From Bacteroidales bacterium (GTDB lineage: Bacteria > Bacteroidota > Bacteroidia > Bacteroidales > UBA7960): a stretch of 64,000 bases of DNA. Location: positions 1,403 through 65,402 of the forward strand of contig PXAA01000046.1 of NCBI GenBank assembly GCA_003567205.1. The letters run 5' to 3'. The notes beneath the pieces are model-generated. The model was not told where the DNA came from. It made no database searches and saw nothing but the letters and a program-made list of their open reading frames with translations. Made by a program: the position numbers and the translations under genes. Of the stretch, positions 19,933 to 36,248 are shown piece after piece. The number at the start of each line of letters is the position of its first letter. The first letter of the stretch is position 1.

Positions 19933-19940
19933 GGATGGGG

Positions 19941-21125
19941 TCAAATATACCGCAAACTCACCTCTTTCAAAAATTTCTCCTCAAGGATGCGGGCAATTTT
20001 TTTCATTACCGATCGGCGGATTTCAAGTTCCACCGGCAGGTTGGGATCCTGGTGGGCTACATTTATGGCTGTTCCTGCCAGCAAATGGATCTCATCGCTT
20101 TCCAGTACCTGTCTGACAATGCGGTCTGCCGGGCCTTTTCCCAGTTCTGTCCGGGGGCTGTATTTATCAAGGATCTCTGCCGTTTTGCTCAGGGACAAAA
20201 TACCTTCGGTGACCAGATCAATGCCTTTCATGAAAGAAATGGGTGGCAAATCAGGGTCGTCAAACTCCAGGGTGTCTTCTATTGTGATGTTCAGCTCCCT
20301 GGAAATAATCTCTGCTGTGGTGCCGCCCGACAGGATCTTTTTCCCGTTAAAGTTTTGCACCAACTTTGCCAGTTCCCTGTCTTTTTTCTTTTCGTAAGGC
20401 GGGCCTGAACAGATCAGCAAACGGCGGGGTTCGCGAAAGTAGATCACTGCGGCGCTTGTATCGTCTTTTGCCTGGTATCCGTCATTGGCATGGGCCTTGT
20501 TCACGATTAGGGAGGCCAGTTTGGATGCCGATATACCGGGTTTTTCATTTACCAGGTGAAAAAAGTGTTTCTCTACCTCTTCGGCACCCCATCCCAACAA
20601 AAACTGATCATGCCCCAGACCCGATTGGGTGATGCCGTCGGTCATCAAAAGGATGCGGTCTTCTTTCAGGGCATTGAAACTACAGGCCTTGATCTCTTTC
20701 TGAGACCGGTCGGCTGTTTCAATAGTGATATGTTGCCAGTCGGGGTGATATGCTTCTTTTTCGCGCATGACAATGGCATCGGGATTGTCATAGTTCAGGA
20801 TCGTACATTGCCCGCCCCGTTCAATATCCACTATGGTAAAGGTGGCATAACTGATCTTGCGTTCGCTGCATACGGGCAGTGTGTTCATGATGATCTCGGC
20901 GATCTTGTGGGCGTCCTTATGTTCCTTGGTGAAGTTCAGTGCCATGGTGGCTGTAAGGGTTGCCAGCAGGTTGGCCTTAACCCCGTGCCCCATGCCGTCC
21001 GACAGTACCACCACTGTCCGGCCTTCCTCCCTGACCCTTTCGGAGAGAAAGATATCGCCGCAAATGCGCTCACCGGCATGATTCCGCAAGGCCGACCCAA
21101 CCTCTATGTAAAATCCCTCACCCAT
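19941..21125 (-). CDS. PP2C/SpoIIE-type Ser/Thr protein phosphatase with about 190-aa C-terminal domain of unknown function (HfsC-like)
   Basis: GERICGDIFL...VVVLSDGMGHGVKANLLATL...LLMTDGI is a PPM/SpoIIE catalytic core. The C-terminal half (ICSGPPYEKK...KILSGGTTAEII...) has no motif I can name. Located directly after the HydS-type gene. Confidence 0.8.
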   Translation of the reverse strand: MGEGFYIEVGSALRNHAGERICGDIFLSERVREEGRTVVVLSDGMGHGVKANLLATLTATMALNFTKEHKDAHKIAEIIMNTLPVCSERKISYATFTIVDIERGGQCTILNYDNPDAIVMREKEAYHPDWQHITIETADRSQKEIKACSFNALKEDRILLMTDGITQSGLGHDQFLLGWGAEEVEKHFFHLVNEKPGISASKLASLIVNKAHANDGYQAKDDTSAAVIYFREPRRLLICSGPPYEKKKDRELAKLVQNFNGKKILSGGTTAEIISRELNITIEDTLEFDDPDLPPISFMKGIDLVTEGILSLSKTAEILDKYSPRTELGKGPADRIVRQVLESDEIHLLAGTAINVAHQDPNLPVELEIRRSVMKKIARILEEKFLKEVSLRYI

Positions 21126-21164
21126 GTTATTTTCACAAAATTTCCACTAACGCAACAATTTAAA

Positions 21165-21192
21165 CCACTAATTACTAACTACTAACTACTAA
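21165..21192. repeat. Four tandem heptamers TTAGTAR (read on the minus strand) starting at the stop codon of the HydS-PAS gene
   Basis: Reverse complement reads GAAGAAG TAA TTAGTAG TTAGTAG TTAGTAA TTAGTGG. The first 23 nt (GAAGAAGTAATTAGTAGTTAGTA) are identical to 2783-2805. Confidence 0.9.
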
Positions 21193-23043
21193 TTACTTCT
21201 TCTTTCTTTGGTAAGTTTCAATAATGGAGTTCAGCATCTTCTCCGTCGTACTTGCCCCTTCGCCCAAAGAAAATGCAATCTGCTGTACCATCTTCAGATT
21301 TTCGTCAATTACCTCATTCACCCTGTTGATAATCTCCTCCTGGCGCACTTCGGCTACGTACATGTCGCGGAATACTCCGCCAACTATTTTGTTGGGCTTC
21401 AGCGAATAAATGCTGACATTGAGCAGACGGTCGTCATATTCCACATCCTTGCCCACGATGTTTTTGTCATTCTCCAGCACATAGGTAAACAGGTTATAAA
21501 GATTATAGGGGAGCAGGGTTTTTAAGTCAGCGCCTGCAAGTCCGGGAATCACCTCGTTAATCATGACCGCATCTTCGCCCAGTACTTTGATGAAACTGTC
21601 GTTGGATTCTATGACCTTAAGTTTGTCGTCAACAATCACGGCCGCCGAAGGCAGGTTTTTAAGCAGGGCGGAAGTGGTGTCGGATTGCTGTTTGAGTTTC
21701 TGGTTTTCTTCCAGCAGTGATTTTTCCTTTTCCAGTAAGCCTTCTTGTTGCTTTTTCAGTTTCTCGTTGTTGTTTTTAAGGGTCTTGATGTAATCCTGTT
21801 TGTTTTTTATGGAATAGTTCAGGCACATCTCCGGTCTGGAAAGCCCCTGGGCAATGGAAGCGGCAAAATCGTGACAGCTTCTGAAACCGCAAGCAGTGCA
21901 CGAGGCACTGTGTTCCGGCTTTTTCCCCAGGCTCTTTAAAATTTCTTCTACTTGCTCATTGCCTGGCTGGGGCAGGCGCTGGTCGTCTTTAACTAAGGTG
22001 CGGGCCAGGTTGAGTTCAAGGTATTCTTTCATGTCTTTTTCCCATTGCTCCTGGTCAAAATCCTTAAGACGTTTGTGCACATAGTCCACTACCATGGTGC
22101 GCCGCAGAAATTTATTCGACTGATCGGTAGTTCCCGGCCCCACAATACAACCACCATGATAGAATACGTTGAAATGTTTTTTCAGGAATTCGGCCTGTTT
22201 GTTGAACTCCTCCACCAGGTCGAGCATATTGTTTTTTCCTTCTACAGTGATCACCTTCCCGTCAAACAGCGAATCATCCAGTTTGGCTGCATATACAATG
22301 CCTTTGCTGATGGGGAAGAGTGAGCCAAGGTAGCCGATGGGCTTGTCGAAATCAGAATATTCCACCTTGGCTTCTTTGATCTTAAAACGGGTAAACAAGG
22401 AACGCAGTTCCTTAAAAGTCAGCACTGCATCCACACGTCCCGTGCCCTTGTGCAGTTTGGCTTCGTGCTTTGCCGAAAGGCAGGGGCCGATGAAAACCAC
22501 TTTCAGTTCTTTTCCGAAGGCCTTGCGGACCACTTTGGCACTGGCCGTCATCGGGGTGATGATGGGGGACAGGTTTTCGGTGAGTTCCGGAAAGAATTTT
22601 TCTACATAGGATACCATGCTCGGGCAATTGGACATCAGATAATATTTGCCCTTGAAATTAGAAAGCAGGTCATTGTATTTTTTTGCCACCAGATCTACAC
22701 CGAACGATACTTCATTTACGAAATCGAAGCCCAGTGTACGGATCATCTCCACGAACTTCCGGTAATCGGTAATGTCGGGAAATTCTCCGCTGATGGTGGG
22801 GTCTACAATGGCGGCCACCTTATGCTTTGATTCAAGAAGTGCTATCGTATTTTCCATGTCACTGAAATGAGATACTGCACTGGTAGCACACACCGTTAAG
22901 CAACTGCCGCAACCAATGCAGCGTGCATGGTTAACTTCCGGCATGCCGTTTTTACCACTTGCGGTAATGGATTTTACCGGACAAGCCCTGATGCATGCAT
23001 AGGACCTGTTGCAGCGGTCATGGTCTATTTGGATGATTTTCAT
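21193..23043 (-). CDS. hydS: Sensor-type [FeFe]-hydrogenase paralogue with C-terminal PAS domain (HydS-like, phosphatase-linked class)
   Basis: Two ferredoxin motifs (CNRSYACIRACP, CIGCGSCLTVC). H-domain with altered motifs: L1 MSNCPS, L2 GPCLSAKHE, L3 YHGGCIVGPG. Then CTACGFRSC-x16-C, a K/E/Q coiled coil, and a PAS-like region (SAAVIVDDKLKVIESNDSFIKVLG...). ATG at 23043 is preferred, and a TTG at 23073 is also possible. Confidence 0.85.
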   Translation of the reverse strand: MKIIQIDHDRCNRSYACIRACPVKSITASGKNGMPEVNHARCIGCGSCLTVCATSAVSHFSDMENTIALLESKHKVAAIVDPTISGEFPDITDYRKFVEMIRTLGFDFVNEVSFGVDLVAKKYNDLLSNFKGKYYLMSNCPSMVSYVEKFFPELTENLSPIITPMTASAKVVRKAFGKELKVVFIGPCLSAKHEAKLHKGTGRVDAVLTFKELRSLFTRFKIKEAKVEYSDFDKPIGYLGSLFPISKGIVYAAKLDDSLFDGKVITVEGKNNMLDLVEEFNKQAEFLKKHFNVFYHGGCIVGPGTTDQSNKFLRRTMVVDYVHKRLKDFDQEQWEKDMKEYLELNLARTLVKDDQRLPQPGNEQVEEILKSLGKKPEHSASCTACGFRSCHDFAASIAQGLSRPEMCLNYSIKNKQDYIKTLKNNNEKLKKQQEGLLEKEKSLLEENQKLKQQSDTTSALLKNLPSAAVIVDDKLKVIESNDSFIKVLGEDAVMINEVIPGLAGADLKTLLPYNLYNLFTYVLENDKNIVGKDVEYDDRLLNVSIYSLKPNKIVGGVFRDMYVAEVRQEEIINRVNEVIDENLKMVQQIAFSLGEGASTTEKMLNSIIETYQRKKK

Positions 23044-23069
23044 GCCCTGGTTTTGATTGGTTTGGCGGT

Positions 23070-23327
23070 TCAATGATTGGCGAAATGATTGTCCAGCAGT
23101 TCAGTGATGTTGTCAGATTGAACCTTTGTATACCTGATGCCATCAATAATCAATACGGGCCCGAGCTCGCAATCCCCGAAGCAATGCGCCCCCCTGAACC
23201 GGAAGGTGTCTTCAAGCCCCCTTTCTTTCAGGTAATTTTTTATAAGTTCAAGGCTGTGCTTGTTCCCCCTCGAAAAGCAACTGCTGCCCATGCATATGAC
23301 GATTTCACCGGTAAGTGTCTGGCTCAT
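23070..23327 (-). CDS. Thioredoxin-like [2Fe-2S] ferredoxin (NuoE/HfsA-like small protein)
   Basis: 85 aa with C-x4-C (CMGSSC) and C-x3-C (CFGDC) spaced as in NuoE-type [2Fe-2S] domains. First gene of the minus-strand operon. Confidence 0.8.
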   Translation of the reverse strand: MSQTLTGEIVICMGSSCFSRGNKHSLELIKNYLKERGLEDTFRFRGAHCFGDCELGPVLIIDGIRYTKVQSDNITELLDNHFANH

Positions 23328-23516: not shown

Positions 23517-23524
23517 TATCTTTG
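23517..23524 (+). promoter_or_regulatory. Candidate Bacteroidota -7 promoter element for hydCBA
   Basis: TATCTTTG is a perfect TAnnTTTG, 108 nt upstream of the hydC ATG. The predicted leader contains TTGTGAA (Rex half-site) and the inverted repeat AATTGA-N10-TCAATT at 23600-23621. Confidence 0.4.
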
Positions 23525-23631
23525 TTGCATTGATTTTTAATAACTTAAATGATTGATTACAATCTTGTTATTGTTTATTCAATTATTTCTTTTATATTGT
23601 GAATTGAATATCAACACTCAATTATGCGGAC

Positions 23632-24099
23632 ATGGATGTAGGGCACATATTGAAAAAATTTCCCAACCGCCGGCGGGAGGATCTGATTCCCCTGCTGCAA
23701 CGCATTCAGGATGAAAACGGTTTTTTGTCGGAGGAGATCATCCACACCGTGGGGGACTACCTGAATATCAGTATAAACAAGATTTATGGGGTGGCTACTT
23801 TTTACGACAATTTCCGGTTCGGCCCACTGGGAAAATACCATTTCCGCCTTTGCCACGGAACGGCCTGCCATGTGGCAGGATCAACCACTCTGCTGAAGGA
23901 ACTGGAAAAATTGCTGCAGATCACCAGTGGCGAAACGGACAAAAGTGGCCTGTTCAGCCTTGAGGTGGTCAGCTGTATAGGTGCCTGCGGGCTAGCCCCC
24001 CTGATCGAGGTCAATGAGATGTATTATACGAATCTAACCCCGGACGCTTTGAAAGACCTTGTGCGGTTGTTCCGGGAAAAAGAAAATGCTGTCATATGA
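23632..24099 (+). CDS. hydC: [FeFe]-hydrogenase NuoE-like [2Fe-2S] subunit
   Basis: 155 aa with CHGTACHVAG...VSCIGACGLAP, the NuoE/HydC cysteine pattern. ATGA overlap with hydB. Confidence 0.92.
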   Translation: MDVGHILKKFPNRRREDLIPLLQRIQDENGFLSEEIIHTVGDYLNISINKIYGVATFYDNFRFGPLGKYHFRLCHGTACHVAGSTTLLKELEKLLQITSGETDKSGLFSLEVVSCIGACGLAPLIEVNEMYYTNLTPDALKDLVRLFREKENAVI

Positions 24100-26062: not shown

Positions 26063-27796
26063 ATGGAATTCCAGATTAAAATAAACAATAAACAAATCCG
26101 GGTACAGGAGGGGGAGACCTTGTTGTCTGCACTGCGCAGAAATGCATTCCGGATCCCCACCTTATGTCATATGAACCGTTTTTCGCCATCGGGTGCTTGT
26201 CGTTTGTGTGTGGTGGAGGTAGAGGGGAAGCGTGATCTGATTACATCATGTTCCCATCCCGTGGAACAGGGCATGCGAGTCAGGACCAATTCGCAGCGCG
26301 TGATACGGGCCCGCAAATCACTGGTGGAACTTTTGTTGTCGAATCATCCGGACGACTGCCTTTATTGCCAACGCAACGGCCACTGCGAGCTCCAGTGGCT
26401 GGCCGAAGAAATGAATGTGAAGGAACGCAGGTTTTTTGGGAAAAAGAATACCTGGTATCCTGATTATTCAAGTACCAGTGTGGCCCGGGACCCGGCAAAA
26501 TGCGTGCTTTGCAGCCGTTGTGTCCGCATATGTGAAGAGGTGCAGCTGGTTACAGCCATTGACTTTATTTCGCGCGGCAACCAGACCCGGGTGAACAGTG
26601 CCTTCAACAAAGGCCTGAACGAATCGAGCTGTATTCATTGTGGGCAGTGCATCCAGGTTTGCCCTACGGCCGCCCTTCTGGATATTTCGCATGTGGAAAA
26701 AGTGCAGGCGGCCCTGGGCAAAGAAAGCCAGCAGGTAATCTTTTCAATCAGCCCTTCTGTGGTGGCTTCGGTAACAGATAAACTGGGGTTTAAATCCAAA
26801 GCAAAAGCCATGGATCGCATTGCTGCAGCTCTGAACAGATGTGGGGCATCGAAGGTTTTTGACCTGGGTATAGCCTATGACGTCAATGTACTTGAGGATG
26901 CCCGCATACTGGCCGACAGGCTGGCAGGTAACGGTAACGGTAACGGTAACGGTGCCCTTCCCCTGATGTCGTCCTGTTGCCCTTCCTGGGTAAAATATGT
27001 GCAATCATTCCGGCCAGGCAGCCTTGCGCATTTGTCGGGGGCTAAGTCGCCGCAACAAATCTTCGGTACTTTGGTCAAAACAGTGTATGCCGAACAAGAA
27101 GGCATTGCACGGGATTCGATCTTTTCGGTGACGGTCATGCCCTGTGTGGCCGAAAAATACGAAGCCTCTTTGGAAGAAAATACCCACAAAGGGGTTTCAG
27201 AAGTGGATGCTGTTTTGACGGTGCGGGAATTTTTTCAGCTCCTGAGGGGTTCCGGACTGGATATTGCCCAAATGGAAGAAGAAGCGCCCGACGGACCCTA
27301 TAATACAAGTTCAGCTGCTGCCTGGAAGGCCGGATATTCCGGGGGCAAGGCCGAGGCGGTTGCCCGTGAATTGTTCCGGATGTTGGCCGATCCGAAAAAA
27401 GAGCGTTTTAAATTCAATTTGCCCAAGAATATATCGGGGCGCCGTGAAATAAAGGTGCCCATTGGGGGACGGGAAATCGGCTTTGCCTGGGTGAGCAGTA
27501 TTGTCGAAGCAGAAGACTATATCATGCACCTGGAAGAAGAAAAAAGGGATGACATACACTATATTGAGGTAATGGCCTGTTTGGGTGGTTGTGTCGGTGG
27601 TGGCGGACAACCCGTCAACCGTGGTTTTGAGAATGTAAAATCGCGCAAACGAATATGTGTGGAAATGGAAAAAAACGCACTGTTTAAACTCCCTGTAGAC
27701 AATCCTGGTATTAAACCCTTATACAAGGGGAAACGCCTGCTGCCTGATAACCCCACAGCCCTTGAATGGCTGGGCAACCGGTTCATGGAAAAATAA
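26063..27796 (+). CDS. hydA: Electron-bifurcating-type [FeFe]-hydrogenase catalytic subunit
   Basis: N-terminal plant-type [2Fe-2S] (CRLCVVEV), His-ligated and 2x[4Fe-4S] domains. H-cluster motifs: L1 SSCCPSW, L2 MPCVAEKYE, L3 EVMACLGGCVGGGGQP. Confidence 0.93.
   Translation: MEFQIKINNKQIRVQEGETLLSALRRNAFRIPTLCHMNRFSPSGACRLCVVEVEGKRDLITSCSHPVEQGMRVRTNSQRVIRARKSLVELLLSNHPDDCLYCQRNGHCELQWLAEEMNVKERRFFGKKNTWYPDYSSTSVARDPAKCVLCSRCVRICEEVQLVTAIDFISRGNQTRVNSAFNKGLNESSCIHCGQCIQVCPTAALLDISHVEKVQAALGKESQQVIFSISPSVVASVTDKLGFKSKAKAMDRIAAALNRCGASKVFDLGIAYDVNVLEDARILADRLAGNGNGNGNGALPLMSSCCPSWVKYVQSFRPGSLAHLSGAKSPQQIFGTLVKTVYAEQEGIARDSIFSVTVMPCVAEKYEASLEENTHKGVSEVDAVLTVREFFQLLRGSGLDIAQMEEEAPDGPYNTSSAAAWKAGYSGGKAEAVARELFRMLADPKKERFKFNLPKNISGRREIKVPIGGREIGFAWVSSIVEAEDYIMHLEEEKRDDIHYIEVMACLGGCVGGGGQPVNRGFENVKSRKRICVEMEKNALFKLPVDNPGIKPLYKGKRLLPDNPTALEWLGNRFMEK
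26927..26953 (+). repeat. Perfect (GGTAAC)4-GGT microsatellite inside hydA, encoding GNGNGNGNG
   Basis: Read directly. In frame, and ends 7 codons before the L1 motif (ALPLMSSCCPSW). Confidence 0.95.
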
Positions 27797-27805
27797 ATTT
27801 TGAAT

Positions 27806-29854
27806 ATGTCTGAGAAGAATAAGGAAATCATATATACCGTAAAGGATCGCTGCAAGGTTTGCTATACATGTGTTCGCGAATGCCCTGCCAGGGCCATCCG
27901 TATAATGAACGGCCAGGCTGAGATCATTCCAGACAGGTGCATTGCCTGTGGTAATTGCATCCGGGTGTGCAGCCGCGATGCAAAAATGTTTGCTTTCTCT
28001 ATTGATAAAGTAAAGACCCTGCTCAACGGTCAACAGAAAGTGGCCGCTATTGTAGCACCAAGCATTGCGGGCGAGTTTACTGATATCAAAGATTACCGGC
28101 ATTTTGTGGGCATGATCAAGGCGCTGGGTTTTGATTATGTCAATGAGGTGGCCTTCGGAGCTGAACTTATTGCAAACAAATACAAGGAGTTGCTGGAATC
28201 CGGGCCCAAACGCCCGTTGATTTCCACATCCTGTCCGGCTATTGTAAGCTATGTAGAGAAGCATCACCCACAGATCATCGATTCGTTGATGCCGGTGGTT
28301 TCGCCCATGATCGCTACGGCCAGGGTATTGAAGGAAAAACACGGCGATGGGCTTAAAATTGTGTTTATCGGGCCCTGTATTGCCAAAAAGGTGGAGGCGG
28401 CTGAGGACCAGTTCAGGGGATTGATTGACGAAGTGATCTCTTTTGTTGAACTGCGTCGCATGTTTGCCGAGAAGGGTCTGGATGAGAGCAAGGTACAGCC
28501 CCACGAGTTTGATCCGCCTGTGGCTGGTAAAGGCGCCATCTTTCCCATTAGCGGGGGTATGCTGCAAACCGTCGACCTGGAAGAAGATTTTGTAAAGGGG
28601 GATATTGTGGTGGCCGAGGGCAGGCACGACATCATTGAGGTGCTGCGTGAATTTGAGGAGGGCTACCTGGAAGCCAAAATGTTTGACCTGCTATGCTGCA
28701 ATGGCTGTATCAACGGGCCAGGTATGAGTAATAAGCATAAATTTTTCTATAAACGAAAGAACATTTCCAACTTTGCCAAAAGGCGTTACGATCTGATAGA
28801 TCTGGAGCAATGGCAGAACGATCTGAACATTTACCTGCAATTGAAGCTCGACCGCAGTTTTGAGGCCGATGACCAGCGTTTCCCCAGCCTGCCAAATGAT
28901 GAGGAGATCCGTGAGGTCCTGAGAAGGTTTGGCAAAAAGGAGGCAGAAGACGAGCTCAACTGCGGGGCTTGCGGCTACGACACCTGTTATGAGCATGCCA
29001 TGGCCATTTTGCAGGGCTTGGCCGAATCGGAAATGTGCCTGCCCTACACCATAGATAAACTGCATGAATACATCGCGGAACTGGATGTATCAAACAAGAA
29101 GCTGGCTTCTACGCAGGCCGCACTGAAGCAAAGTGAAAAACTGGCCTCCATGGGACAGCTGGCGGCCGGCATAGCCCATGAGGTGAATAATCCGCTGGGG
29201 GTTGTTATCATGTATAGCCATATTTTGCTGGATGAAATGGATCCATCCCTGCCCCTGTACCGCGACCTGAAAATAATTGTGGAACAGGCCGACCGGTGCA
29301 AAAAGATTGTTGGTGGCCTGTTGAACTTCGCCCGGAAAAGCAAGCTGACCATTGATATGATTAGCGTTAAAAAATTGATTAATAATGGGTTAAAGGCAAT
29401 AGTGTTGCCGGGGAATGTGGACCTGGACATCCGGATCAATACCCAGAACCCCATGTTTGAATGCGACCATGACCAGATGGTGCAGGTATTCGCCAATTTG
29501 TTTAAAAATGCCGTAGATGCGATGCCGGAAGGAGGAAAGCTTGTAGTTGCAGTGGATGAAAAAAAGGGGGGAGATACCCTGGAATTCCGTATTGCAGATA
29601 CCGGGACAGGCATTTCGAAAGAAAATATAGACCGTATGTTTGAGCCTTTCTTTACAACAAAGGAAACAGGGCAGGGGACCGGGCTCGGACTGCCGATTAT
29701 TTATGGCATCATCAAGATGCACCGCGGCAATATCAGGGTAGACTCCAACAATGATGCGGCCAAAGGCCCTACCGGATCCACTTTTTTTGTGAGCCTGCCG
29801 CGAAAATCTGATGAAAAACAAAAAACAAAACCGGATGAGGCGCTTATCCGCTAA
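27806..29854 (+). CDS. Sensor-type [FeFe]-hydrogenase domain fused to a HisKA/HATPase histidine kinase
   Basis: 2x CxxCxxCxxxC ferredoxin motifs. H-domain: L1 STSCPA, L2 GPCIAKKVE, L3 LLCCNGCINGPG. Then CGACGYDTC-x16-C, a coiled coil, H-box AAGIAHEVNNPLG, N-box NLFKNAVDAM, G1 DTGTGI and G2 GQGTGLGL. Starts 9 nt after the hydA stop. Confidence 0.88.
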   Translation: MSEKNKEIIYTVKDRCKVCYTCVRECPARAIRIMNGQAEIIPDRCIACGNCIRVCSRDAKMFAFSIDKVKTLLNGQQKVAAIVAPSIAGEFTDIKDYRHFVGMIKALGFDYVNEVAFGAELIANKYKELLESGPKRPLISTSCPAIVSYVEKHHPQIIDSLMPVVSPMIATARVLKEKHGDGLKIVFIGPCIAKKVEAAEDQFRGLIDEVISFVELRRMFAEKGLDESKVQPHEFDPPVAGKGAIFPISGGMLQTVDLEEDFVKGDIVVAEGRHDIIEVLREFEEGYLEAKMFDLLCCNGCINGPGMSNKHKFFYKRKNISNFAKRRYDLIDLEQWQNDLNIYLQLKLDRSFEADDQRFPSLPNDEEIREVLRRFGKKEAEDELNCGACGYDTCYEHAMAILQGLAESEMCLPYTIDKLHEYIAELDVSNKKLASTQAALKQSEKLASMGQLAAGIAHEVNNPLGVVIMYSHILLDEMDPSLPLYRDLKIIVEQADRCKKIVGGLLNFARKSKLTIDMISVKKLINNGLKAIVLPGNVDLDIRINTQNPMFECDHDQMVQVFANLFKNAVDAMPEGGKLVVAVDEKKGGDTLEFRIADTGTGISKENIDRMFEPFFTTKETGQGTGLGLPIIYGIIKMHRGNIRVDSNNDAAKGPTGSTFFVSLPRKSDEKQKTKPDEALIR

Positions 29855-29865
29855 AAAATACAGAT

Positions 29866-30264
29866 ATGCTTAAAAAAGAAAAAAAGACCATTCTGATTGT
29901 TGACGACGATGCCGATTACCTGTTTCAGCTCAGGCACGGAGTAAAGGATATGGGCTTTGAGGTGATGTCGGCGGGTACACAAAAAGAGGCCGAAGACATT
30001 ATCCGGCGCATGCGGCCCGATTTGGCCATCCTGGATCTGATGATGGAAAACCAGGACACGGGCTTTATCCTTTGCCACAAGATCAAGAGCAGGTATCCTG
30101 ATTTGCCCATCATTATAGTATCTGCCGTAACAGCCGAAACGGGCATGCTCTTTGATGTCACCACAGAGGAAGAACAGGACTGGATTAAGGCAGACCTGTT
30201 CCTGGACAAGGGCATCCGGATGGATCAGCTGAATAAGGAGATCAATAAATTGCTAAAACTCTGA
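29866..30264 (+). CDS. Stand-alone response-regulator receiver (CheY-like)
   Basis: 132 aa with ILIVDDD...PDLAILDLMM...IIIVSA...K, giving the acidic pocket, phospho-acceptor Asp, Ser/Thr and Lys positions of REC. No output domain. Confidence 0.9.
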   Translation: MLKKEKKTILIVDDDADYLFQLRHGVKDMGFEVMSAGTQKEAEDIIRRMRPDLAILDLMMENQDTGFILCHKIKSRYPDLPIIIVSAVTAETGMLFDVTTEEEQDWIKADLFLDKGIRMDQLNKEINKLLKL

Positions 30265-30268
30265 TGCA

Positions 30269-31393
30269 ATGGAAACTTTAAACCTCCTGGTGGTTGACGA
30301 CGAACCAGGCATCCGTAGCGGTGTTTGCCGGATTCTGGAGAATTACGCCGTGAGCTATCCATTCATGGACGAGGATATCGGGTTCTGCATAGAGACCGCC
30401 GAAACCGGTGAGGAAGCCCTTGAAATCCTTAAGAAAAAGCCCATGGATATCGTGTTGCTCGACAACAAACTTCCGGGAATACAGGGGATAGATGTGCTGG
30501 AATACATCAACCAGCAGAACATGGACCTGGTGGTGGTTATGATCACCTCCTACGCTTCCCTTGAACTGGCCGTTAAAGCCACTCGTCAGGGGGCCTACGA
30601 TTTTGTTCCCAAACCCTTCACGCCCAAGGAGCTGCGCGCATCCGTCGAGACCATAACCAAACAACGTTTCCTGCAGCGCATGACACAGAAAATGAATGTA
30701 GAAGGGCGCCAGGTTCGTTTTCAGTTTCTTTCGGTCCTGTCGCACGAGCTCAAAGCGCCGATCAATGCCGTGGAAGGATACCTGGATATGATGCAGAATA
30801 AAAAGTTTGGCGATCAAATGGATGCCTACAGGGAGATTATTGACCGGTCTTTGCACCGGATACAGGGAATGCGCAACCTGATCATGGATATGCTCGACTT
30901 TACGCGCATCGAAAGCGGAAAGAAAAAACGCAAACTGGAAATGATCAACCTGTGCGAGATTGCACAGCAATGCATAGACTCCTTTCAGCCACTGGCCATC
31001 CAGAAAGATGTGGATGTATATTTGAATTGCAGCGAAAAGATCGCCCTGCAGGCCGACAGCCAGGAAATGGAGATCATTCTGAATAACCTGGTATCCAACG
31101 CCATCAAATACAACAAGCAGGGTGGAAGGGTCGATGTAAATATCAGAAAGGAAAACGGACGGCTGATGCTGAGTGTCGAAGATACCGGCATTGGGATGAA
31201 ATTGGAGGATACCAAAAAACTTTTTGATGATTTTGTCCGGATTAAAAGTGAACATACCAAACATATCAGCGGCAGCGGGCTGGGCTTGTCGATCGTTAAA
31301 AAGCTGCTAGACCTTTATGACGCAAGCATAGAGGTGGACAGTGTGCCTGACCAGGGAAGCTGCTTTACCATCATGTTTAAACGTAATGATTGA
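30269..31393 (+). CDS. Hybrid receiver-histidine kinase (REC-HisKA-HATPase)
   Basis: N-terminal REC (LLVVDDEP...DIVLLDNKLPG...KP). H-box LSVLSHELKAPIN, N-box NLVSNAIKYN, G1 DTGIGM and G2 GSGLGLSI. Confidence 0.9.
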   Translation: METLNLLVVDDEPGIRSGVCRILENYAVSYPFMDEDIGFCIETAETGEEALEILKKKPMDIVLLDNKLPGIQGIDVLEYINQQNMDLVVVMITSYASLELAVKATRQGAYDFVPKPFTPKELRASVETITKQRFLQRMTQKMNVEGRQVRFQFLSVLSHELKAPINAVEGYLDMMQNKKFGDQMDAYREIIDRSLHRIQGMRNLIMDMLDFTRIESGKKKRKLEMINLCEIAQQCIDSFQPLAIQKDVDVYLNCSEKIALQADSQEMEIILNNLVSNAIKYNKQGGRVDVNIRKENGRLMLSVEDTGIGMKLEDTKKLFDDFVRIKSEHTKHISGSGLGLSIVKKLLDLYDASIEVDSVPDQGSCFTIMFKRND

Positions 31394-31416: not shown

Positions 31417-32046
31417 ATGGCAAAAAACACCTATCTTGAGTTACCAGGTAAAACGGTTGAACGCCTGAGCCAATACAGGCGGATTTTATACAACAGCATC
31501 AATGAAGGCAAAACGAACATTTACTCCCATGAACTGGCAAAAATGATGAACCTGACACCTGTACAGGTTCGCAGGGACCTGATGCTCATCGGCTATTCAG
31601 GAAGCCAGAGCAAGGGTTATGTGATCAAGGACTTGGTGGCGCTGATTGGCAAGATTATTGACAGTGACGAGGGCCAGGACATCATTCTGGTGGGGATGGG
31701 CAACCTGGGCCGGGCCATTACCAGTTATTTTACGGGCAAAAGAGACAAATTGTCCATTGCAGCCGTCTTTGACAATGATCTGCAAAAGACAGACCGCATC
31801 ATAGCCGGCATCCCGTGTCACCACATCAGCCACATCAAGGAATTTGTTGCAAAAGAAAATATTCAAATTGCTGTATTAACGGTTTCTCCCGAAGCCACCT
31901 ATGAAGTGGCAAAAATGCTGCTGGATGCAGGGATTAAGGGAATATTGAATTATACATCGGTGCCGCTTACCGTGCCTGAAGGCATTCACCTGGAAGAATA
32001 CGATATTGTGACATCACTTGAAAAACTGGCTTATCTTGTCAAATGA
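31417..32046 (+). CDS. rex: Redox-sensing (NADH/NAD+) transcriptional repressor
   Basis: ATG at 31417. Winged-helix N-terminus (GKTVERLSQYRRIL...SHELAKMMNLTPVQVRRDL) plus a Rossmann GxGxxG (ILVGMGNLGRAI), collinear with Rex. Confidence 0.9.
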   Translation: MAKNTYLELPGKTVERLSQYRRILYNSINEGKTNIYSHELAKMMNLTPVQVRRDLMLIGYSGSQSKGYVIKDLVALIGKIIDSDEGQDIILVGMGNLGRAITSYFTGKRDKLSIAAVFDNDLQKTDRIIAGIPCHHISHIKEFVAKENIQIAVLTVSPEATYEVAKMLLDAGIKGILNYTSVPLTVPEGIHLEEYDIVTSLEKLAYLVK

Positions 32047-32963
32047 GGGTATATTATCATACAGCCGAAGCGGCAGGAAAAATCAACAGGGCGGTGGTCA
32101 CCACCGGAAGCTTTGATGGGGTCCACATAGGGCATAAGTTGATTATTAACAGGTTAAACGAAATTGCCAGGGAAATAGGGGGGGAGTCTGCGCTCATCAC
32201 CTTTTATCCCCATCCACGCAAGGTTTTGTATCCCGACCAGGAGAATCTGAAAATGATCAACTCCCAGGAAGAAAAGATTGAACTGCTGCGCAAGGCCGGG
32301 CTGGAAAACCTGATCATTATCCCCTTTTCGCTGGAGTTTTCAAAAACCACATCCCGCGATTTTGCCGTCAATATGCTGATCGGACACCTGGGCGCCAGGG
32401 TAGTGGTTGTGGGCCATAACCATCATTTCGGATATGCCAGGAAGGGCGATTATTCTTACCTGCATCGCCTGAGCCGCGATATGGGATTTGGTGTGGAAGA
32501 GATTCCCCTGCAGATGATAGAGAATGAAACGGTTAGCTCCACCAAGATCAGGAAAGCCTTGTCGGAAGGCAACATTCAACGGGCCAATGCATACCTGGAT
32601 CATCAGTATATCATTAAGGGCAGTTTGTATAAAGGCACCCTGGCAGAAGGCCCGGTTTCCGGACAGGTAGCGGGTAGCACCATTGATACCGGGGAAAAAC
32701 TCGTGCCGCCCCCGGGCATTTACGCTACCAACCTGGTGTCAGGGGGTGTTTGGATGAAATCCATGACCCTTATTACCCAATGTGCCGAAAACCTGCCGCA
32801 GGTCGAAAGTATATTGCTGTACGACAAATTAGAGCCGGAGGCCTTGCAGGGGACATTGTATTTTTATAAACGTGTCTGGGACGGCGATCCCGTCAATAAT
32901 GGCCAGACCGACAGGGGAGCCCTGGATGAAGCCAGGGACCTGGTTGAAGAATTGATCTATTAA
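32043..32963 (+). CDS. ribF: FAD synthetase (FMN adenylyltransferase) with divergent riboflavin-kinase-like C-terminal half
   Basis: N-terminal GSFDGVHIGH and SSTKIR nucleotidyltransferase motifs are intact. The C-terminal half aligns in length to the RFK module but lacks the G-x-P-T-A-N motif. ATGA overlap with rex. Confidence 0.8.
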   Translation: MRVYYHTAEAAGKINRAVVTTGSFDGVHIGHKLIINRLNEIAREIGGESALITFYPHPRKVLYPDQENLKMINSQEEKIELLRKAGLENLIIIPFSLEFSKTTSRDFAVNMLIGHLGARVVVVGHNHHFGYARKGDYSYLHRLSRDMGFGVEEIPLQMIENETVSSTKIRKALSEGNIQRANAYLDHQYIIKGSLYKGTLAEGPVSGQVAGSTIDTGEKLVPPPGIYATNLVSGGVWMKSMTLITQCAENLPQVESILLYDKLEPEALQGTLYFYKRVWDGDPVNNGQTDRGALDEARDLVEELIY

Positions 32964-33854: not shown

Positions 33855-35282
33855 ATGATTTACCACCCTGAGAAATATCGAATTGCGGACAAGCGCATGA
33901 CGCCTTTCATTGATGCCGCTGAGATCTGGGATTTTATCAATAATACACGGGCAGACAAACAGCGGGTGCGTGAGGTGATCCGGGCTTCGCTCGACAAAAA
34001 ACGCCTTTCTCTTGAGGAAACCGCAGTGTTGATCAATGCCACAGACCCTGAATTGATTGAAGAGATCAAGGAAGGGGCCCGGTTGCTTAAAGAGAAAGTG
34101 TATGGTGAGCGTATTGTGCTGTTTGCACCCCTGTATGTGGGCGATTTGTGCACGAACAATTGTCAGTATTGCGGTTTTCGCACTTCCAACAAAGGGGTCA
34201 AACGCATTACCCTGAGCGGGGAAGAATTGATCGCCGAAACCATAGCACTGATTGATCAGGGCCATAAACGGCTGATCCTGGTTTATGGTGAACATCCCAA
34301 ATACTCGGCCGAATTCATCGCCGGGACCGTAAAGATTGTGTATGGCGTTAAACATAAAAACGGTGAAATCAGGCGGGTAAACATCAATGCCGCGCCCTTT
34401 GACATACCGGGTTTTCGTACCATCAAGGATGCCGGTATCGGGACCTTCCAGGTATTTCAGGAAACATATCATGAACCCACCTATAAGAAGGCCCATCTGG
34501 GTGGTATCAAAAGAAATTACGAATGGCGTTTGACCTCGCTCGACAGGGCGCAGGAAGCCGGTATTGACGATGTGGGTATCGGCGCTTTGTTCGGGCTTTA
34601 CGATTGGCGTTTTGAAGTGATGGGGCTGGTTCGTCACGCAAACCACTTTGAAGCGGTCTACAATGTGGGTCCGCATACAATCTCTTTCCCCAGGATCCAG
34701 AATGCCATGTCGCTCGACGTTGATAAAAGCCAACTGGTCAATGACGATGAATTTGTGCGCCTGGTATCTATTCTTCGGCTGGCTGTGCCTTATACCGGCA
34801 TGATACTCACCGCCCGCGAGCCCGCCCATGTCCGCGACCAGATCCTGCGTTTGGGGGTGTCGCAGATTGATGGTGGCACCAATCTTGAGTTGGGCGGTTA
34901 TTCCAAAGGAAAGCATGATGAACAGGATTTAAGCAAGGGGCAGTTCCAGATCAACGACAACAGGTCGCTGGGCGAAATCATGGATGAACTGATCAGGTCG
35001 GGATACATCCCGTCTTTCTGTACGGCATGTTATCGCTTGGGGCGCACCGGTGAGCATTTCATGGAGTTTTCCGTACCGGGTTTTATCAAAAGGTATTGTA
35101 CGCCCAACGCTTTGCTTACACTGGCCGAATACCTGGAGGACTATGCCGGTAAAGAGAGCAGAAAAGCTGGCTATAAGCTCATTGACGACAAGGTCAGGGA
35201 ACTGGAGCGGGAACAAAAGGTGGCCAAACTCAGGGAAAAGATCGGAGAGATCAAATCCGGAAACAGGGACTTGTATTTTTAA
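33855..35282 (+). CDS. hydG: [FeFe]-hydrogenase H-cluster radical-SAM maturase
   Basis: CTNNCQYCGF (CX3CX2C radical-SAM site) and C-terminal CTAC-x22-C auxiliary-cluster motif. ThiH-like length of 475 aa. Confidence 0.92.
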   Translation: MIYHPEKYRIADKRMTPFIDAAEIWDFINNTRADKQRVREVIRASLDKKRLSLEETAVLINATDPELIEEIKEGARLLKEKVYGERIVLFAPLYVGDLCTNNCQYCGFRTSNKGVKRITLSGEELIAETIALIDQGHKRLILVYGEHPKYSAEFIAGTVKIVYGVKHKNGEIRRVNINAAPFDIPGFRTIKDAGIGTFQVFQETYHEPTYKKAHLGGIKRNYEWRLTSLDRAQEAGIDDVGIGALFGLYDWRFEVMGLVRHANHFEAVYNVGPHTISFPRIQNAMSLDVDKSQLVNDDEFVRLVSILRLAVPYTGMILTAREPAHVRDQILRLGVSQIDGGTNLELGGYSKGKHDEQDLSKGQFQINDNRSLGEIMDELIRSGYIPSFCTACYRLGRTGEHFMEFSVPGFIKRYCTPNALLTLAEYLEDYAGKESRKAGYKLIDDKVRELEREQKVAKLREKIGEIKSGNRDLYF

Positions 35283-35294
35283 AAACGATAGATT

Positions 35295-35561
35295 ATGCAA
35301 CAGACCATGATTCTTGGCATTTTGGTATTCGACCGGATCAAGGAAGCCGGCCGCACACAAGAGGTGCTTACCAAACATGCAGACGTGATCAGAACCCGCC
35401 TGGGTTTTCATGAACTTTCAGACAATGTTTGCAGCCGGGTGGGGACCATTTTGCTGGTCCTTCAGGGCAATCCCGACCAGTGGGAAGAACTTCAGGAAGA
35501 CCTGGCGCAAATTGGCGGGGTGGAGATCAAAAAAATGAAGTTTGATTATATGTTTAAGTAA
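35295..35561 (+). CDS. TM1266-family ACT-like putative iron-only-hydrogenase system regulator (copy 1)
   Basis: 88 aa (ILGILV...VLTKHADVIRTRLGFH...GTILLVLQG...GVEIKKM) matches the small TM1266/NikR-C-like family normally found beside hydE/F/G. Confidence 0.7.
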   Translation: MQQTMILGILVFDRIKEAGRTQEVLTKHADVIRTRLGFHELSDNVCSRVGTILLVLQGNPDQWEELQEDLAQIGGVEIKKMKFDYMFK

Positions 35562-35572
35562 ATTTACCTGAA

Positions 35573-35824
35573 ATGGCTGAAATCAGAGTATTAGGTGTTT
35601 TAGTAGAAACCAGGACACAGGCGGCCCAAAAGCTACAGGAAATCCTTACCAAATATGGGTGTTCCATCAGGACACGCCTGGGATTGCATACCCTGGATTT
35701 GCCCGATTGCGCCAGTTGCGGGCTCATCATTCTGGAGCTTACGGGCAACCAGGATGAATGCATTCGCCTCGAAAATGAATTATGGGCGCTGGATGGGGTG
35801 AAAGTACAGAAAATGGTTTTTTAA
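35573..35824 (+). CDS. TM1266-family ACT-like putative iron-only-hydrogenase system regulator (copy 2)
   Basis: 83 aa, collinear with and clearly similar to copy 1 by eye (VLGVLV...ILTKYGCSIRTRLGLH...GLIILELTG...GVKVQKM). Confidence 0.7.
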   Translation: MAEIRVLGVLVETRTQAAQKLQEILTKYGCSIRTRLGLHTLDLPDCASCGLIILELTGNQDECIRLENELWALDGVKVQKMVF

Positions 35825-35840
35825 CCTCAAATTAAAATGT

Positions 35841-36248
35841 ATGGCAAAACTGGTTCATTTTTCAGAGGCCGCATCCCTGGCATTGCATGCCATGGTGTTG
35901 ATTGCCAAAACAAAGAATCACGTAAATGTGAATAGCATCGCACAAGAAATGGGTGCTTCAAGAAACCACTTGGCCAAAGTGCTTCAGCAACTGGTCAAAT
36001 ACAATTTCCTGAAGTCCGTAAGGGGCCCCAACGGAGGCTTTGTCCTTAGCAAGCCGGCTGATCAGATCACCATTCTGGAAATCTATGAGGCCATTGAGGG
36101 CAAGATTGACCTGCCCGAATGCCCCCTCGATCGCAAAATCTGTCCTTTCAACAAATGCCTCGTGGATGGCTTGGTGCGGGACGTAACCGCACAATTTAAG
36201 AAATATTTTCAGGAACAAAGTCTGGAAGATTTTGTTACACGTTCTTAA
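35841..36248 (+). CDS. Rrf2-family transcriptional regulator with three-Cys cluster motif
   Basis: N-terminal winged helix (ALHAMVLIAK...SIAQEMGASRNHLAKVLQQL...RGPNGGF) and CPLDRKICPFNKC, a C-x6-C-x4-C pattern as in Fe-S-binding Rrf2 proteins. Confidence 0.85.
   Translation: MAKLVHFSEAASLALHAMVLIAKTKNHVNVNSIAQEMGASRNHLAKVLQQLVKYNFLKSVRGPNGGFVLSKPADQITILEIYEAIEGKIDLPECPLDRKICPFNKCLVDGLVRDVTAQFKKYFQEQSLEDFVTRS

What the first reader, a model, noticed from the sequence alone, without database searches (positions are those of the whole stretch)
27806..29854. H-cluster domain fused directly to a classical histidine kinase, encoded 9 nt after hydA
The N-terminal 430 aa look like a complete cofactor-binding sensor H-domain.
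- Two intact CxxCxxCxxxC motifs are present.
- All four H-cluster Cys positions are present (STSCPA, GPCIAKKVE, LLCCNGC).
- An extra CxxCx4Cx16C motif is present.
- The proton-relay Cys of TSCCP is Ser, and the L3 Glu and Met positions are changed (FDLL). These are the kinds of change associated with sensory rather than catalytic behaviour in T. maritima HydS.

A coiled coil (LHEYIAELDVSNKKLASTQAALKQSEKLASMGQLAAG) runs straight into the H-box AHEVNNPLG, followed by N, G1 and G2 boxes. There is no PAS or HAMP domain in between, so the redox or H2 state of the cofactor would have to be transmitted through the helix to the DHp domain. To my knowledge no kinase-linked [FeFe] sensor has been biochemically characterised.
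Basis: partly seen in the sequence, partly recalled or inferred. Interest (0 to 1): 0.78.

Follow-up and report, generated by a model that had tools for sequence, protein, structure and literature searches.

The report
Hydrogenase-like H2 sensor fused to kinase
This gene fuses an apparently intact, hydrogenase-type H2-binding module directly to a histidine kinase through one rigid helix; genome surveys have already catalogued this protein class, but nobody has tested one, and it would be a very direct system for asking whether such proteins really sense hydrogen.

Summary
Window 27806-29854 (+) encodes a 682-aa protein that starts 9 nt after hydA. Its domains are 2x[4Fe-4S] Fer4, an [FeFe]-hydrogenase H-domain, a Cx2Cx4Cx16C cluster motif, HisKA and HATPase_c, with no PAS or HAMP.

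All 16 cluster cysteines and the [2Fe]-pocket residues are invariant in orthologues. The proton relay is dismantled (C299->S, E279->K, S319->M, M353->G, M497->L). One correction: the third H-cluster ligand is C298, not C297.

New support for helix-mediated signalling:
- A confident AlphaFold model gives one unbroken helix from C411 through H458.
- The Cys-to-His spacing in diverse homologues falls on 47 +/- 7n residues in 25 of 28 cases.

The 12-gene locus is conserved in about 45 Bacteroidales genomes. It holds a degenerate PAS-type paralogue with a PP2C phosphatase, then hydCBA, this sensor kinase, REC, REC-HK and Rex.

The class is not new. HydDB lists "histidine kinase-linked (putative)" group C enzymes, and a 2024 paper describes this two-sensor cluster in Bacteroidota. 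I found no biochemical characterisation. Verdict: a real and well-preserved new member of a known, untested kind.

The parts
27806..29854 (+). hydS-HK: 682-aa H-cluster sensor fused to a histidine kinase (whole gene)
   Evidence: ORF and translation; Pfam and NCBIfam domains; at least 118 full-length homologues
27833..27982 (+). N-terminal 2x[4Fe-4S] ferredoxin-like domain (residues 10-59; C16/19/22/26 and C45/48/51/55)
   Evidence: Pfam Fer4 families; all 8 Cys are 100% conserved in 119 sequences
28034..28720 (+). H-domain (residues 77-305). H-cluster ligands are C143, C191, C298 and C301; pocket residues are A84-P85-S86, S166-P167, K194 and E197. Sensory-type substitutions are S142 (CpI C299), G189 (M353) and L296 (M497).
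   Evidence: PF02906 at E 2e-51; alignment to CpI, TmHydA and TkHydA; conservation; Foldseek match to [FeFe]-hydrogenases over 365-450 columns at rmsd 3.3-4.5 A
28955..29044 (+). C-terminal Cx2Cx4Cx16C [4Fe-4S] motif (residues 384-413; C386, C389, C394, C411), the hallmark of group C and D putative sensory hydrogenases
   Evidence: PF04060; invariant in 119 close sequences and about 140 diverse ones; motif described for groups C and D in PMC8163306
29039..29176 (+). Signalling helix (residues 412-457) that joins the last cluster ligand C411 to the phospho-acceptor H458; invariant heptad L412/L419/L426/L433/L440/A447/A454
   Evidence: No indels in 119 sequences; Cys-to-His spacing is 47 +/- 7n in 25 of 28 diverse fusions; AF2 gives a single helix 412-477
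29150..29338 (+). DHp / HisKA domain (residues 449-511) with H-box H458EVNNPL
   Evidence: PF00512; H458 invariant; helices 412-477 and 483-510
29465..29806 (+). Catalytic ATP-binding domain (residues 554-667) with N, G1, F and G2 boxes
   Evidence: PF02518; motif search; Foldseek match to the ZraS cytoplasmic domain, TM 0.80 and 31% identity
23632..27796 (+). hydC (23632-24099), hydB (24096-26045) and hydA (26063-27796): trimeric NADH/ferredoxin-type (group A3-like) [FeFe]-hydrogenase, directly upstream and probably co-transcribed
   Evidence: Pfam and NCBIfam; HydA matches the electron-bifurcating HydA1 of T. kivui at E 4e-126; gaps between genes are 17 nt or less
29866..30264 (+). Stand-alone receiver protein (132 aa; D13/D14, D57, S86, K115), the likely phospho-acceptor
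   Evidence: PF00072; residues; conserved next to the sensor in essentially every locus that extends beyond it
30269..31393 (+). REC-HisKA-HATPase hybrid (374 aa; D65, H159), a second-tier kinase
   Evidence: Pfam; residues; conserved in most loci but absent in L011, L013 and L014
31390..32046 (+). rex: NADH/NAD+-sensing repressor in the same gene string
   Evidence: NF003995 at 204 bits against a cutoff of 126; conserved synteny
23597..23616 (+). Candidate operator TTGTGAA-N6-ATCAACA, 15 nt upstream of the hydC ATG (Rex/CRP-like imperfect palindrome)
   Evidence: The half-sites and their position (mostly 14-17 nt, up to 25 nt, before hydC) are conserved in most close loci while the spacer varies. 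13 of 35 loci score at least 11/14 against about 1% of shuffles. The site is unique in the window.
19941..23327 (-). Divergent second sensor operon: thioredoxin-like [2Fe-2S] protein (23070-23327), HydS2 (21193-23073; H-domain-like + Cx2Cx4Cx16C + coiled coil + PAS-like tail; H-cluster site degenerate) and a SpoIIE/PP2C phosphatase (19941-21125)
   Evidence: Pfam; translation; motif decay across 31 orthologues; synteny
33855..36248 (+). HydG maturase (33855-35282), two TM1266/CPF_0552-family small 'hydrogenase system regulator' proteins (35295-35561, 35573-35824) and an Rrf2 regulator (35841-36248)
   Evidence: TIGR03955 at 505 bits against a cutoff of 312; NF052672; TIGR00738

Best explanation
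HydS-HK is a soluble, cytoplasmic, H2-responsive histidine kinase of the putative sensory (group C-like) [FeFe]-hydrogenase lineage.

Shown by sequence, conservation and modelling:
- It keeps every residue needed to hold four [4Fe-4S] clusters and the [2Fe] subcluster.
- It has lost the fast proton-transfer pathway, so turnover should be slow, as expected for a sensor.
- The last ligand of the C-terminal cluster (C411) sits at the N-terminal end of a single long helix. That helix continues without a break into DHp helix alpha-1, which carries H458.
- The length of this helix is constrained to whole heptads.

Inferred mechanism:
- The resulting conformational change passes through the C-terminal cluster domain, which acts as a rigid hub, into the dimeric coiled coil.
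- The coiled coil shifts by rotation or piston motion, as in other signalling-helix kinases, and this resets the balance between autokinase and phosphatase activity at H458.
- Phosphoryl groups then flow to the adjacent stand-alone receiver and/or to the REC-HK hybrid, and onward to an output regulator that is not encoded in this window.

Together with Rex (NADH/NAD+) and the paralogous HydS2-PP2C module, this would tune expression or activity of the co-encoded NADH/ferredoxin-dependent HydABC hydrogenase to H2 partial pressure and redox state.
For: - Domain architecture.
- Residue-level alignment to solved hydrogenases.
- 100% conservation of the 16 Cys and of the pocket residues A84-P85-S86, S166-P167, K194 and E197 in 42 syntenic orthologues. 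The paralogue HydS2 in the same loci has lost the third Cys (replaced by H, N or D), K358 (replaced by A) and A230 (replaced by D). This shows that selection specifically maintains the H-cluster site in HydS-HK.
- Sensory-type substitutions match those documented for TmHydS and TamHydS.
- No indels in the C411-H458 linker in 119 sequences, with an invariant heptad.
- Cys-to-His spacing of 33, 40, 47, 54 or 68 in 25 of 28 diverse direct fusions. Of the 13 lengths that are not 47, 10 equal 47 +/- 7n (binomial p about 6e-7).
- AF2 model with mean pLDDT 86.9 and a continuous helix 412-477.
- Foldseek matches to [FeFe]-hydrogenases, to ZraS and to the coiled-coil-linked LOV kinase YF1.
- Intact kinase boxes and receiver residues.
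- Tight operon-like packing and synteny of 12 genes across about 45 Bacteroidales genomes, and of HydA, REC, the sensor and REC-HK in a Phycisphaerales MAG.
- HydG sits nearby.
Against: - There are no experimental data for any kinase-fused member.
- In TamHydS the C-terminal [4Fe-4S] cluster is not reduced by 1 atm H2. A simple model in which the cluster's redox state drives the signal is therefore unlikely, and how the conformational change is coupled remains unknown.
- No DNA-binding response regulator is present in the window, so the regulated target is inferred only from gene adjacency.
- The AF2 model is a monomer and pLDDT drops to 62-70 over residues 430-460. The dimeric coiled coil is inferred, not modelled.
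- M497L in CpI was reported to impair [2Fe] incorporation, although TamHydS naturally carries Leu there and binds the cofactor.
Confidence: 0.6

Rival explanations
1. It is a redox or electron-flux sensor rather than an H2 sensor. The FeS chain equilibrates with reduced ferredoxin or with HydABC, possibly as an extra 'T' subunit docked on the complex. The kinase then reports the reduction state of the pool, and the H-cluster site is structural or vestigial.
For: The 9-nt spacing after hydA and the published 'BfuT subunit' naming suggest co-expression in fixed proportion with HydABC. The N-terminal ferredoxin-like clusters are intact. The C-terminal cluster of TamHydS does not respond to H2. 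Rex in the same operon shows that the locus is wired to redox state.
Against: The residues that contact only the [2Fe] subcluster (K194 = K358, the A-P-S and S-P motifs, C301 = bridging C503) are invariant in HydS-HK, yet they decay in the paralogue HydS2. That pattern is hard to explain if [2Fe] binding were dispensable. TmHydS and TamHydS both bind a functional H-cluster that reacts with H2.
Confidence: 0.2
2. It is a sensor of inhibitory gases or oxidants (O2, CO, NO) that uses the H-cluster or the FeS clusters as a sacrificial or ligand-binding site, in order to shut down expression of the oxygen-sensitive hydrogenase.
For: H-clusters bind CO and react with O2. TamHydS shows unusual CO and O2 reactivity. 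An Rrf2-family FeS regulator lies nearby.
Against: Nothing in the sequence points specifically to this role. The conserved association is with H2-metabolising HydABC, and related group C genes in R. albus are regulated by H2 level.
Confidence: 0.08
3. It is a slow but genuine catalytic hydrogenase whose kinase module is regulated by something else, or the kinase is inactive.
For: TmHydS and TamHydS retain low H2 turnover. Ser at the C299 position could relay protons weakly (from my own knowledge).
Against: All kinase catalytic boxes and H458 are invariant. There is no other sensory domain that could control the kinase. The proton pathway is dismantled.
Confidence: 0.05

Closest known systems
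HydDB [FeFe] group C, 'C1 histidine kinase-linked (putative)', and 'BfuT' with a His_kinase domain next to A3 BfuABC (Hydrogenedentota, Calditrichota, Bacteroidota; PMC5037454, PMC11406978)
   Same: Same architecture class and same genomic context, with the sensor directly downstream of the A subunit of a trimeric A3-type hydrogenase. The 2024 paper also reports a second, PAS-type bfuT upstream of bfuC in the Bacteroidota Perlabentimonas, Tenuifilum and Williamwhitmania, which is exactly the arrangement seen here.
   Different: There is no real difference; the window is another member. The subgroup label (C1 versus C3) could not be assigned here. The published work stops at annotation and predicted folds. 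It does not address linker periodicity, the decay of the upstream paralogue, or the REC/REC-HK/Rex partners.
Thermotoga maritima HydS (TmHydS; group C, M2f)
   Same: Two N-terminal [4Fe-4S] clusters, an H-domain and a C-terminal four-Cys cluster. The proton-relay Cys is replaced and M353 is Gly. It is encoded next to a bifurcating HydABC.
   Different: TmHydS has a PAS domain after the cluster domain and no kinase. It carries Ala, not Ser, at position 299 and Ser, not Leu, at position 497.
Thermoanaerobacter mathranii HydS (TamHydS; group D, M2e)
   Same: No PAS domain. M497 is Leu. It has the C-terminal Cx2Cx4Cx16C cluster, lies adjacent to a bifurcating hydrogenase, and a histidine-kinase-like ATPase is encoded next to it.
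   Different: In TamHydS the kinase-like protein is a separate polypeptide. M353 is Ser rather than Gly. Phylogenetic group D was not tested for the window protein.
[NiFe] regulatory hydrogenase with HoxJ/HupT histidine kinase (HydDB group 2b)
   Same: Same logic: a crippled hydrogenase reports H2 to a histidine kinase that controls hydrogenase expression (and cited).
   Different: The metal site and fold are unrelated. Sensor and kinase are separate proteins that form a complex, and the kinase carries a PAS domain. This is an analogy, not homology.
Signalling-helix kinases such as FixL and the engineered LOV kinase YF1 (PDB 4GCZ)
   Same: A cofactor-binding sensor is joined to the DHp by a continuous coiled coil. 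Foldseek retrieves YF1 and its relatives for the C-terminal half. Heptad-periodic dependence of signalling on linker length is known for YF1 (from my own knowledge).
   Different: The sensor here is a roughly 410-residue four-cluster metallodomain rather than a PAS or LOV domain.

Membership tests
[FeFe]-hydrogenase H-domain (H-cluster-binding) | Four Cys ligands of [4Fe-4S]H, including the bridging Cys (CpI C300, C355, C499, C503) | tested here: met
   C143, C191, C298 and C301 align to these positions. They are 100% conserved in 119 close homologues, and C298 and C301 are at least 98% conserved in 143 diverse homologues.
[FeFe]-hydrogenase H-domain (H-cluster-binding) | Second-sphere residues that hold the [2Fe] CN/CO ligands (CpI A230-P231-S232, P324, K358, E361) | tested here: met
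   A84-P85-S86, S166-P167, K194 and E197 are invariant in 42 orthologues.
[FeFe]-hydrogenase H-domain (H-cluster-binding) | Actual incorporation of the [2Fe] subcluster and reactivity with H2 | not testable with these tools
   This needs artificial maturation followed by FTIR and EPR.
Putative sensory [FeFe]-hydrogenases (groups C/D; M2f/M2e) | Proton-relay Cys299 and the group A proton-transfer pathway are not conserved | tested here: met
   C299->S142, E279->K, S319->M, and the R286 region is deleted. Position 142 is variable (P/T/A/S/N) across the clade.
Putative sensory [FeFe]-hydrogenases (groups C/D; M2f/M2e) | M353 replaced by a small residue (G, S or T) | tested here: met
   G189 is invariant; the criterion comes from PMC10055695.
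Putative sensory [FeFe]-hydrogenases (groups C/D; M2f/M2e) | N-terminal 2x[4Fe-4S] plus the C-terminal Cx2Cx4Cx16C cluster motif | tested here: met
   the criterion comes from PMC8163306.
Putative sensory [FeFe]-hydrogenases (groups C/D; M2f/M2e) | Encoded next to a group A (bifurcating) hydrogenase | tested here: met
   The gene lies 9 nt downstream of hydA of a hydCBA set, and this is conserved in about 45 loci.
M2f / TmHydS-type group C | PAS domain downstream of the C-terminal cluster | tested here: not met
   There is no PAS hit, and only 35 residues separate the FeS and HisKA domains. The model shows a single helix there.
HydDB subgroup C1 versus C3 (k-NN / phylogenetic assignment) | Clustering with HydDB reference sequences | not testable with these tools
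The literature assigns HK-bearing proteins to both C1 and C3.
Class I (HisKA-type) sensor histidine kinase | H-box His in a two-helix DHp, plus N, G1, F and G2 boxes in the CA domain | tested here: met
   H458EVNNPL, N564, D598xGxG, F612 and G624xGLGL. Pfam HisKA and HATPase_c are above their cutoffs. Foldseek match to ZraS at TM 0.80.
Class I (HisKA-type) sensor histidine kinase | Cognate receiver domain encoded nearby | tested here: met
   REC (D57) and REC-HK (D65) lie immediately downstream and are syntenic. The actual phosphotransfer partner was not tested.
Class I (HisKA-type) sensor histidine kinase | Homodimerisation and ATP-dependent autophosphorylation | not testable with these tools
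   Only a monomer prediction is possible here. Heptad conservation is indirect support.

The most novel reading that the evidence does not exclude
The kinase-fused clade may be the minimal, hard-wired H2-to-phosphorylation transducer. An intact H-cluster would be mechanically coupled, through the C-terminal [4Fe-4S] domain and a register-locked coiled coil, to the DHp. No PAS intermediary would be needed, and the C-terminal cluster would not have to change redox state. In Bacteroidales it would work as one arm of a two-sensor circuit: an intact HydS-HK phosphorelay plus a degenerate HydS2-PAS/PP2C module, gated by Rex. The circuit would set expression of the bifurcating hydrogenase according to both H2 pressure and NADH/NAD+. 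If so, the heptad rule predicts that linker edits should invert or abolish H2 signalling.
Probability: 0.35. Interest if true: 0.7.

Novelty: new member of a known kind. Interest (0 to 1): 0.45.

Why it matters
Whether group C and D [FeFe]-hydrogenases really sense H2, and how the signal leaves the protein, has been open since these proteins were recognised. [quoted passage not shown]

A direct kinase fusion supplies a built-in biochemical readout: autophosphorylation and phosphotransfer under H2 versus N2. This analysis adds three testable handles:
- The true third ligand is C298.
- The paralogue in the same locus has lost its H-cluster site and can serve as a natural negative control.
- The helical linker obeys a strict heptad rule, which predicts that signalling depends on helix register.

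H2 sensing that controls electron-bifurcating hydrogenases is relevant to fermentation balance and to syntrophy in sediments, guts and bioreactors.

Tried and rejected
- C297 as the CpI C499 equivalent (ungapped Cx3C reading): rejected. Position 297 is F, A or Y in most homologues while C298 is invariant.
- Canonical Rex box TTGTGAA-N6-TTCACAA: the count in the window is not above chance (3 found against 4.8 expected). The site upstream of hydC becomes credible only through its positional conservation in related loci. It cannot be assigned to Rex rather than to a CRP/FNR-type factor.
- The sigma-70 promoter and terminator scan was uninformative (counts at shuffle level), and Bacteroidota use a different promoter consensus.
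- The first AF2 run, with a shallow alignment of 33 close sequences, gave a poor model (pLDDT 67.8, broken linker helix). It was superseded by the deeper alignment.
- I scanned all larger ORFs of the window for a DNA-binding response regulator and found none.
- Greening et al. 2016 (ISME J) and Zheng et al. 2014 (J Bacteriol) are not in the held library. I used HydDB and later papers instead.
- I considered a pseudogene or a fusion artefact from assembly and rejected both, because more than 118 independent full-length homologues have the same length and architecture.
Full report
**Observation.** The ORF is real and intact. It runs from the ATG at 27806 to the stop at 29854, giving 682 aa. It begins exactly 9 nt (ATTTTGAAT) after the TAA of hydA.

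Pfam gives these domains:
- A ferredoxin-like dicluster domain, residues 10-59.
- Fe_hyd_lg_C, residues 77-305 (E 2e-51).
- The PF04060 FeS motif, residues 384-413.
- HisKA, residues 449-511.
- HATPase_c, residues 554-667.

NCBIfam agrees. The N-terminal half best matches [FeFe]-hydrogenase models, and the C-terminal half matches AtoS, ZraS and CckA-type kinases. Only 35 residues separate the FeS and HisKA domains, so there is no room for a PAS or HAMP domain.

**H-cluster site.** I aligned the protein by phmmer to solved structures (CpI, TmHydA, TkHydA) and by MAFFT to the window's own canonical HydA. The correspondences to CpI are:
- S142 = C299 and C143 = C300.
- G189 = M353, C191 = C355, K194 = K358 and E197 = E361.
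- C301 = C503.
- A84-P85-S86 = A230-P231-S232, and S166-P167 = S323-P324.

The proton pathway is dismantled: E279->K, S319->M, the R286 region is deleted, and C299->S.

In 119 full-length homologues, all eight Fer4 Cys, C143, C191, C298, C301 and the four C-terminal Cys are 100% conserved. C297 is only 97% conserved. In 143 more diverse sensor modules (clusters at 50% identity or less), C298 is invariant and position 297 is mostly F, A or Y. The third ligand is therefore C298, in a Cx2C motif one residue shorter than the group A Cx3C. In this register D294 corresponds to E495, a conservative change, and L296 to M497.

M353G is the TmHydS state and M497L is the TamHydS state. Position 142 varies across the clade (P, T, A, S, N), in line with published remarks that this site is not conserved in sensory enzymes.

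**Contrast with the paralogue.** The same locus encodes a second H-domain protein, HydS2 (21193-23073, minus strand). It has the C-terminal four-Cys motif, a coiled coil and a PAS-like tail, and a SpoIIE/PP2C phosphatase follows it. A small thioredoxin-like [2Fe-2S] protein precedes it.

In 31 HydS2 orthologues the C499 position is H, N or D, K358 is Ala, A230 is Asp and E495 is Asn. In 42 HydS-HK orthologues from the same genomes, all of these positions are invariant. Selection therefore maintains a complete H-cluster pocket in HydS-HK specifically. This is the strongest in-silico argument that HydS-HK binds the [2Fe] cofactor.

**Linker and kinase.**
- The kinase boxes (H458EVNNPL, N564, G1 598, F 612, G2 624) are intact.
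- Between C411 and H458 there are exactly 47 residues in all 119 close homologues, with no indels.
- An invariant heptad runs L412-L419-L426-L433-L440-A447-A454.
- In diverse direct fusions the Cys-to-His spacing is 47 (15 cases), 40 (4), 54 (3), 33 (2) or 68 (1). The values 38, 48 and 49 occur once each. So 25 of 28 equal 47 +/- 7n.
- Of the 13 lengths that are not 47, 10 differ from it by whole heptads (binomial p about 6e-7, ignoring relatedness).
- Longer spacings (141-396 residues) mark members with inserted domains.

A first AF2 model from a shallow alignment was poor (pLDDT 67.8). A 44-sequence alignment spanning 35-84% identity gave mean pLDDT 86.9 and pTM 0.67. That model has a single uninterrupted helix from 412 to 477, followed by DHp helix 483-510.

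No group C or D sensory hydrogenase structure exists in the PDB copy.

**Context.**
- Upstream on the same strand are hydC, hydB and hydA, a NuoE/NuoF-like pair plus an A3-type catalytic subunit. HydA matches the bifurcating T. kivui HydA1 at E 4e-126.
- Downstream, with gaps of 27 nt or less, are a stand-alone receiver, a REC-HisKA-HATPase hybrid, Rex, RibF and an MBL hydrolase.
- Further downstream are HydG, two TM1266/CPF_0552-family proteins and an Rrf2 regulator.
- The order is RibD, PP2C and HydS2 on the minus strand, then HydC, HydB, HydA, HydS-HK, REC, REC-HK, Rex, RibF and MBL on the plus strand. It is conserved in about 45 species-level Bacteroidales MAGs, many from soda-lake sediments, with sensor identity of 70-93%.
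- A Phycisphaerales MAG at 47% identity keeps HydA, REC, the sensor and REC-HK.
- A 20-nt imperfect palindrome, TTGTGAA-N6-ATCAACA, lies 15 nt before hydC. Most close loci keep it at a similar position, with a variable spacer. It is a plausible Rex-type or CRP-type operator but is unassigned.
- No DNA-binding response regulator is encoded in the window.

**How common, and how new.**
- The sensor module has 1,122 representatives (clusters at 50% identity) at E<=1e-30.
- Of the nearest 72, 35-37 carry HisKA/HATPase_c, 8 carry a sigma-54 activator AAA+/HTH_8 output, and about 8 carry PAS.
- At least 118 clusters at 90% identity share the exact architecture, and JGI already labels them 'iron only hydrogenase large subunit-like protein/... 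histidine kinase'.
- HydDB (2016) defines [FeFe] C1 as 'Histidine kinase-linked (putative)'.
- A 2024 mSystems paper describes 'BfuT' group C proteins with PAS or His-kinase domains beside A3 BfuABC. It notes that the Bacteroidota Perlabentimonas gracilis, Tenuifilum thalassicum and Williamwhitmania taraxaci carry one bfuT upstream of bfuC and another downstream of bfuA, 'implications unclear'. That is this locus type.
- Literature searches found biochemical work only on TmHydS and TamHydS. I found none on a kinase-fused member.

**Mechanism.** I judge the most likely function to be an H2-responsive cytoplasmic histidine kinase (confidence 0.6).
- Shown: preservation of the cofactor sites, loss of the proton pathway, a continuous helix with heptad-locked length, intact kinase and receiver residues, and conserved linkage to HydABC.
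- Inferred: H2-dependent changes at the H-cluster propagate through the C-terminal cluster domain into the coiled coil and reset DHp activity. The phosphorelay (REC and/or REC-HK) then reaches an unseen output that controls hydrogenase or fermentation genes, alongside Rex and HydS2-PP2C.
- TamHydS data argue that the C-terminal cluster need not change redox state, so I treat it as a structural hub.
- Rivals are a ferredoxin or redox-pool sensor, possibly docked on HydABC (0.2), a CO or O2 sensor (0.08), and a slow enzyme with an unrelated kinase (0.05).

**Verdict.** The protein is a new member of a catalogued but experimentally untouched class. It is not a new kind. The added value here is the heptad rule for the linker, the identification of C298 as the third ligand, the intact-versus-degenerate paralogue contrast, and the conserved regulatory neighbourhood. 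Together these make a long-standing question directly testable. Interest is moderate (0.45).

Noticed in passing
window 21193-23073 (-), with orthologues in L001-L047: The upstream paralogue HydS2 (H-domain-like + Cx2Cx4Cx16C + coiled coil + PAS-like tail) has a degenerate H-cluster site. The C499 position is H, N or D, K358 is Ala and A230 is Asp, consistently across 31 orthologues. It probably cannot bind a canonical H-cluster, yet it is strictly conserved together with a PP2C phosphatase (19941-21125) and a small [2Fe-2S] protein (23070-23327).
   Followed up: yes
window 26063-27796 (+), HydA residue in motif MPCVAEKYE: The catalytic HydA carries Glu at the CpI K358 position, the Lys that H-bonds the distal CN-. 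Among 44 orthologues the position is N (25), K (18) or E (1), while the adjacent K359 is invariant. This is unusual for a group A enzyme. The NCBIfam group A models also score below their cutoffs (557 against 765, and 341 against 406).
   Followed up: partly
window 23597-23616 (+): A conserved imperfect palindrome, TTGTGAA-N6-ATCAACA, lies 15 nt upstream of the hydC start. Most close loci keep it at a similar position with a variable spacer. It is a candidate Rex-type or CRP-type operator. A Bacteroidetes-style -7 box (TATCTTTG, 23517-23524) lies about 75 nt upstream of it; that reading rests on my own knowledge.
   Followed up: partly
representatives P0121-P0192; not in the window: The same sensor module (Fer4 + H-domain + four-Cys motif) is fused in 8 of the 72 nearest representatives to a sigma-54 activator AAA+ domain with an HTH_8 DNA-binding domain. 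These would be one-component putative H2-responsive enhancer-binding proteins.
   Followed up: partly
window 33855-36248 (+): HydG maturase, followed by two tandem TM1266/CPF_0552-family small proteins ('iron-only hydrogenase system putative regulator') and an Rrf2-family FeS regulator. I saw no HydE or HydF in the ORFs scanned.
   Followed up: partly
window 18886-19944 (-) and 32043-32963 (+): Flavin biosynthesis genes ribD and ribF flank the hydrogenase and sensor locus. Both are syntenic with it across the Bacteroidales loci, and ribF overlaps rex by 4 nt. This may link flavin supply to the flavin-dependent HydB.
   Followed up: no
loci L011, L013, L014: Three related loci lack the REC-HK hybrid: the stand-alone REC is followed directly by rex. 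In the Phycisphaerales locus L041 the REC precedes the sensor. The stand-alone REC is thus the more constant partner.
   Followed up: partly
window 14835-16289 (-): dnaA lies about 7 kb from the sensor locus, so the hydrogenase island sits close to the probable replication origin region.
   Followed up: no
window 61073-62059 (+): A 328-aa protein has a PAS domain (residues 76-189) and no recognised output domain in Pfam. It is unrelated to the locus studied.
   Followed up: no
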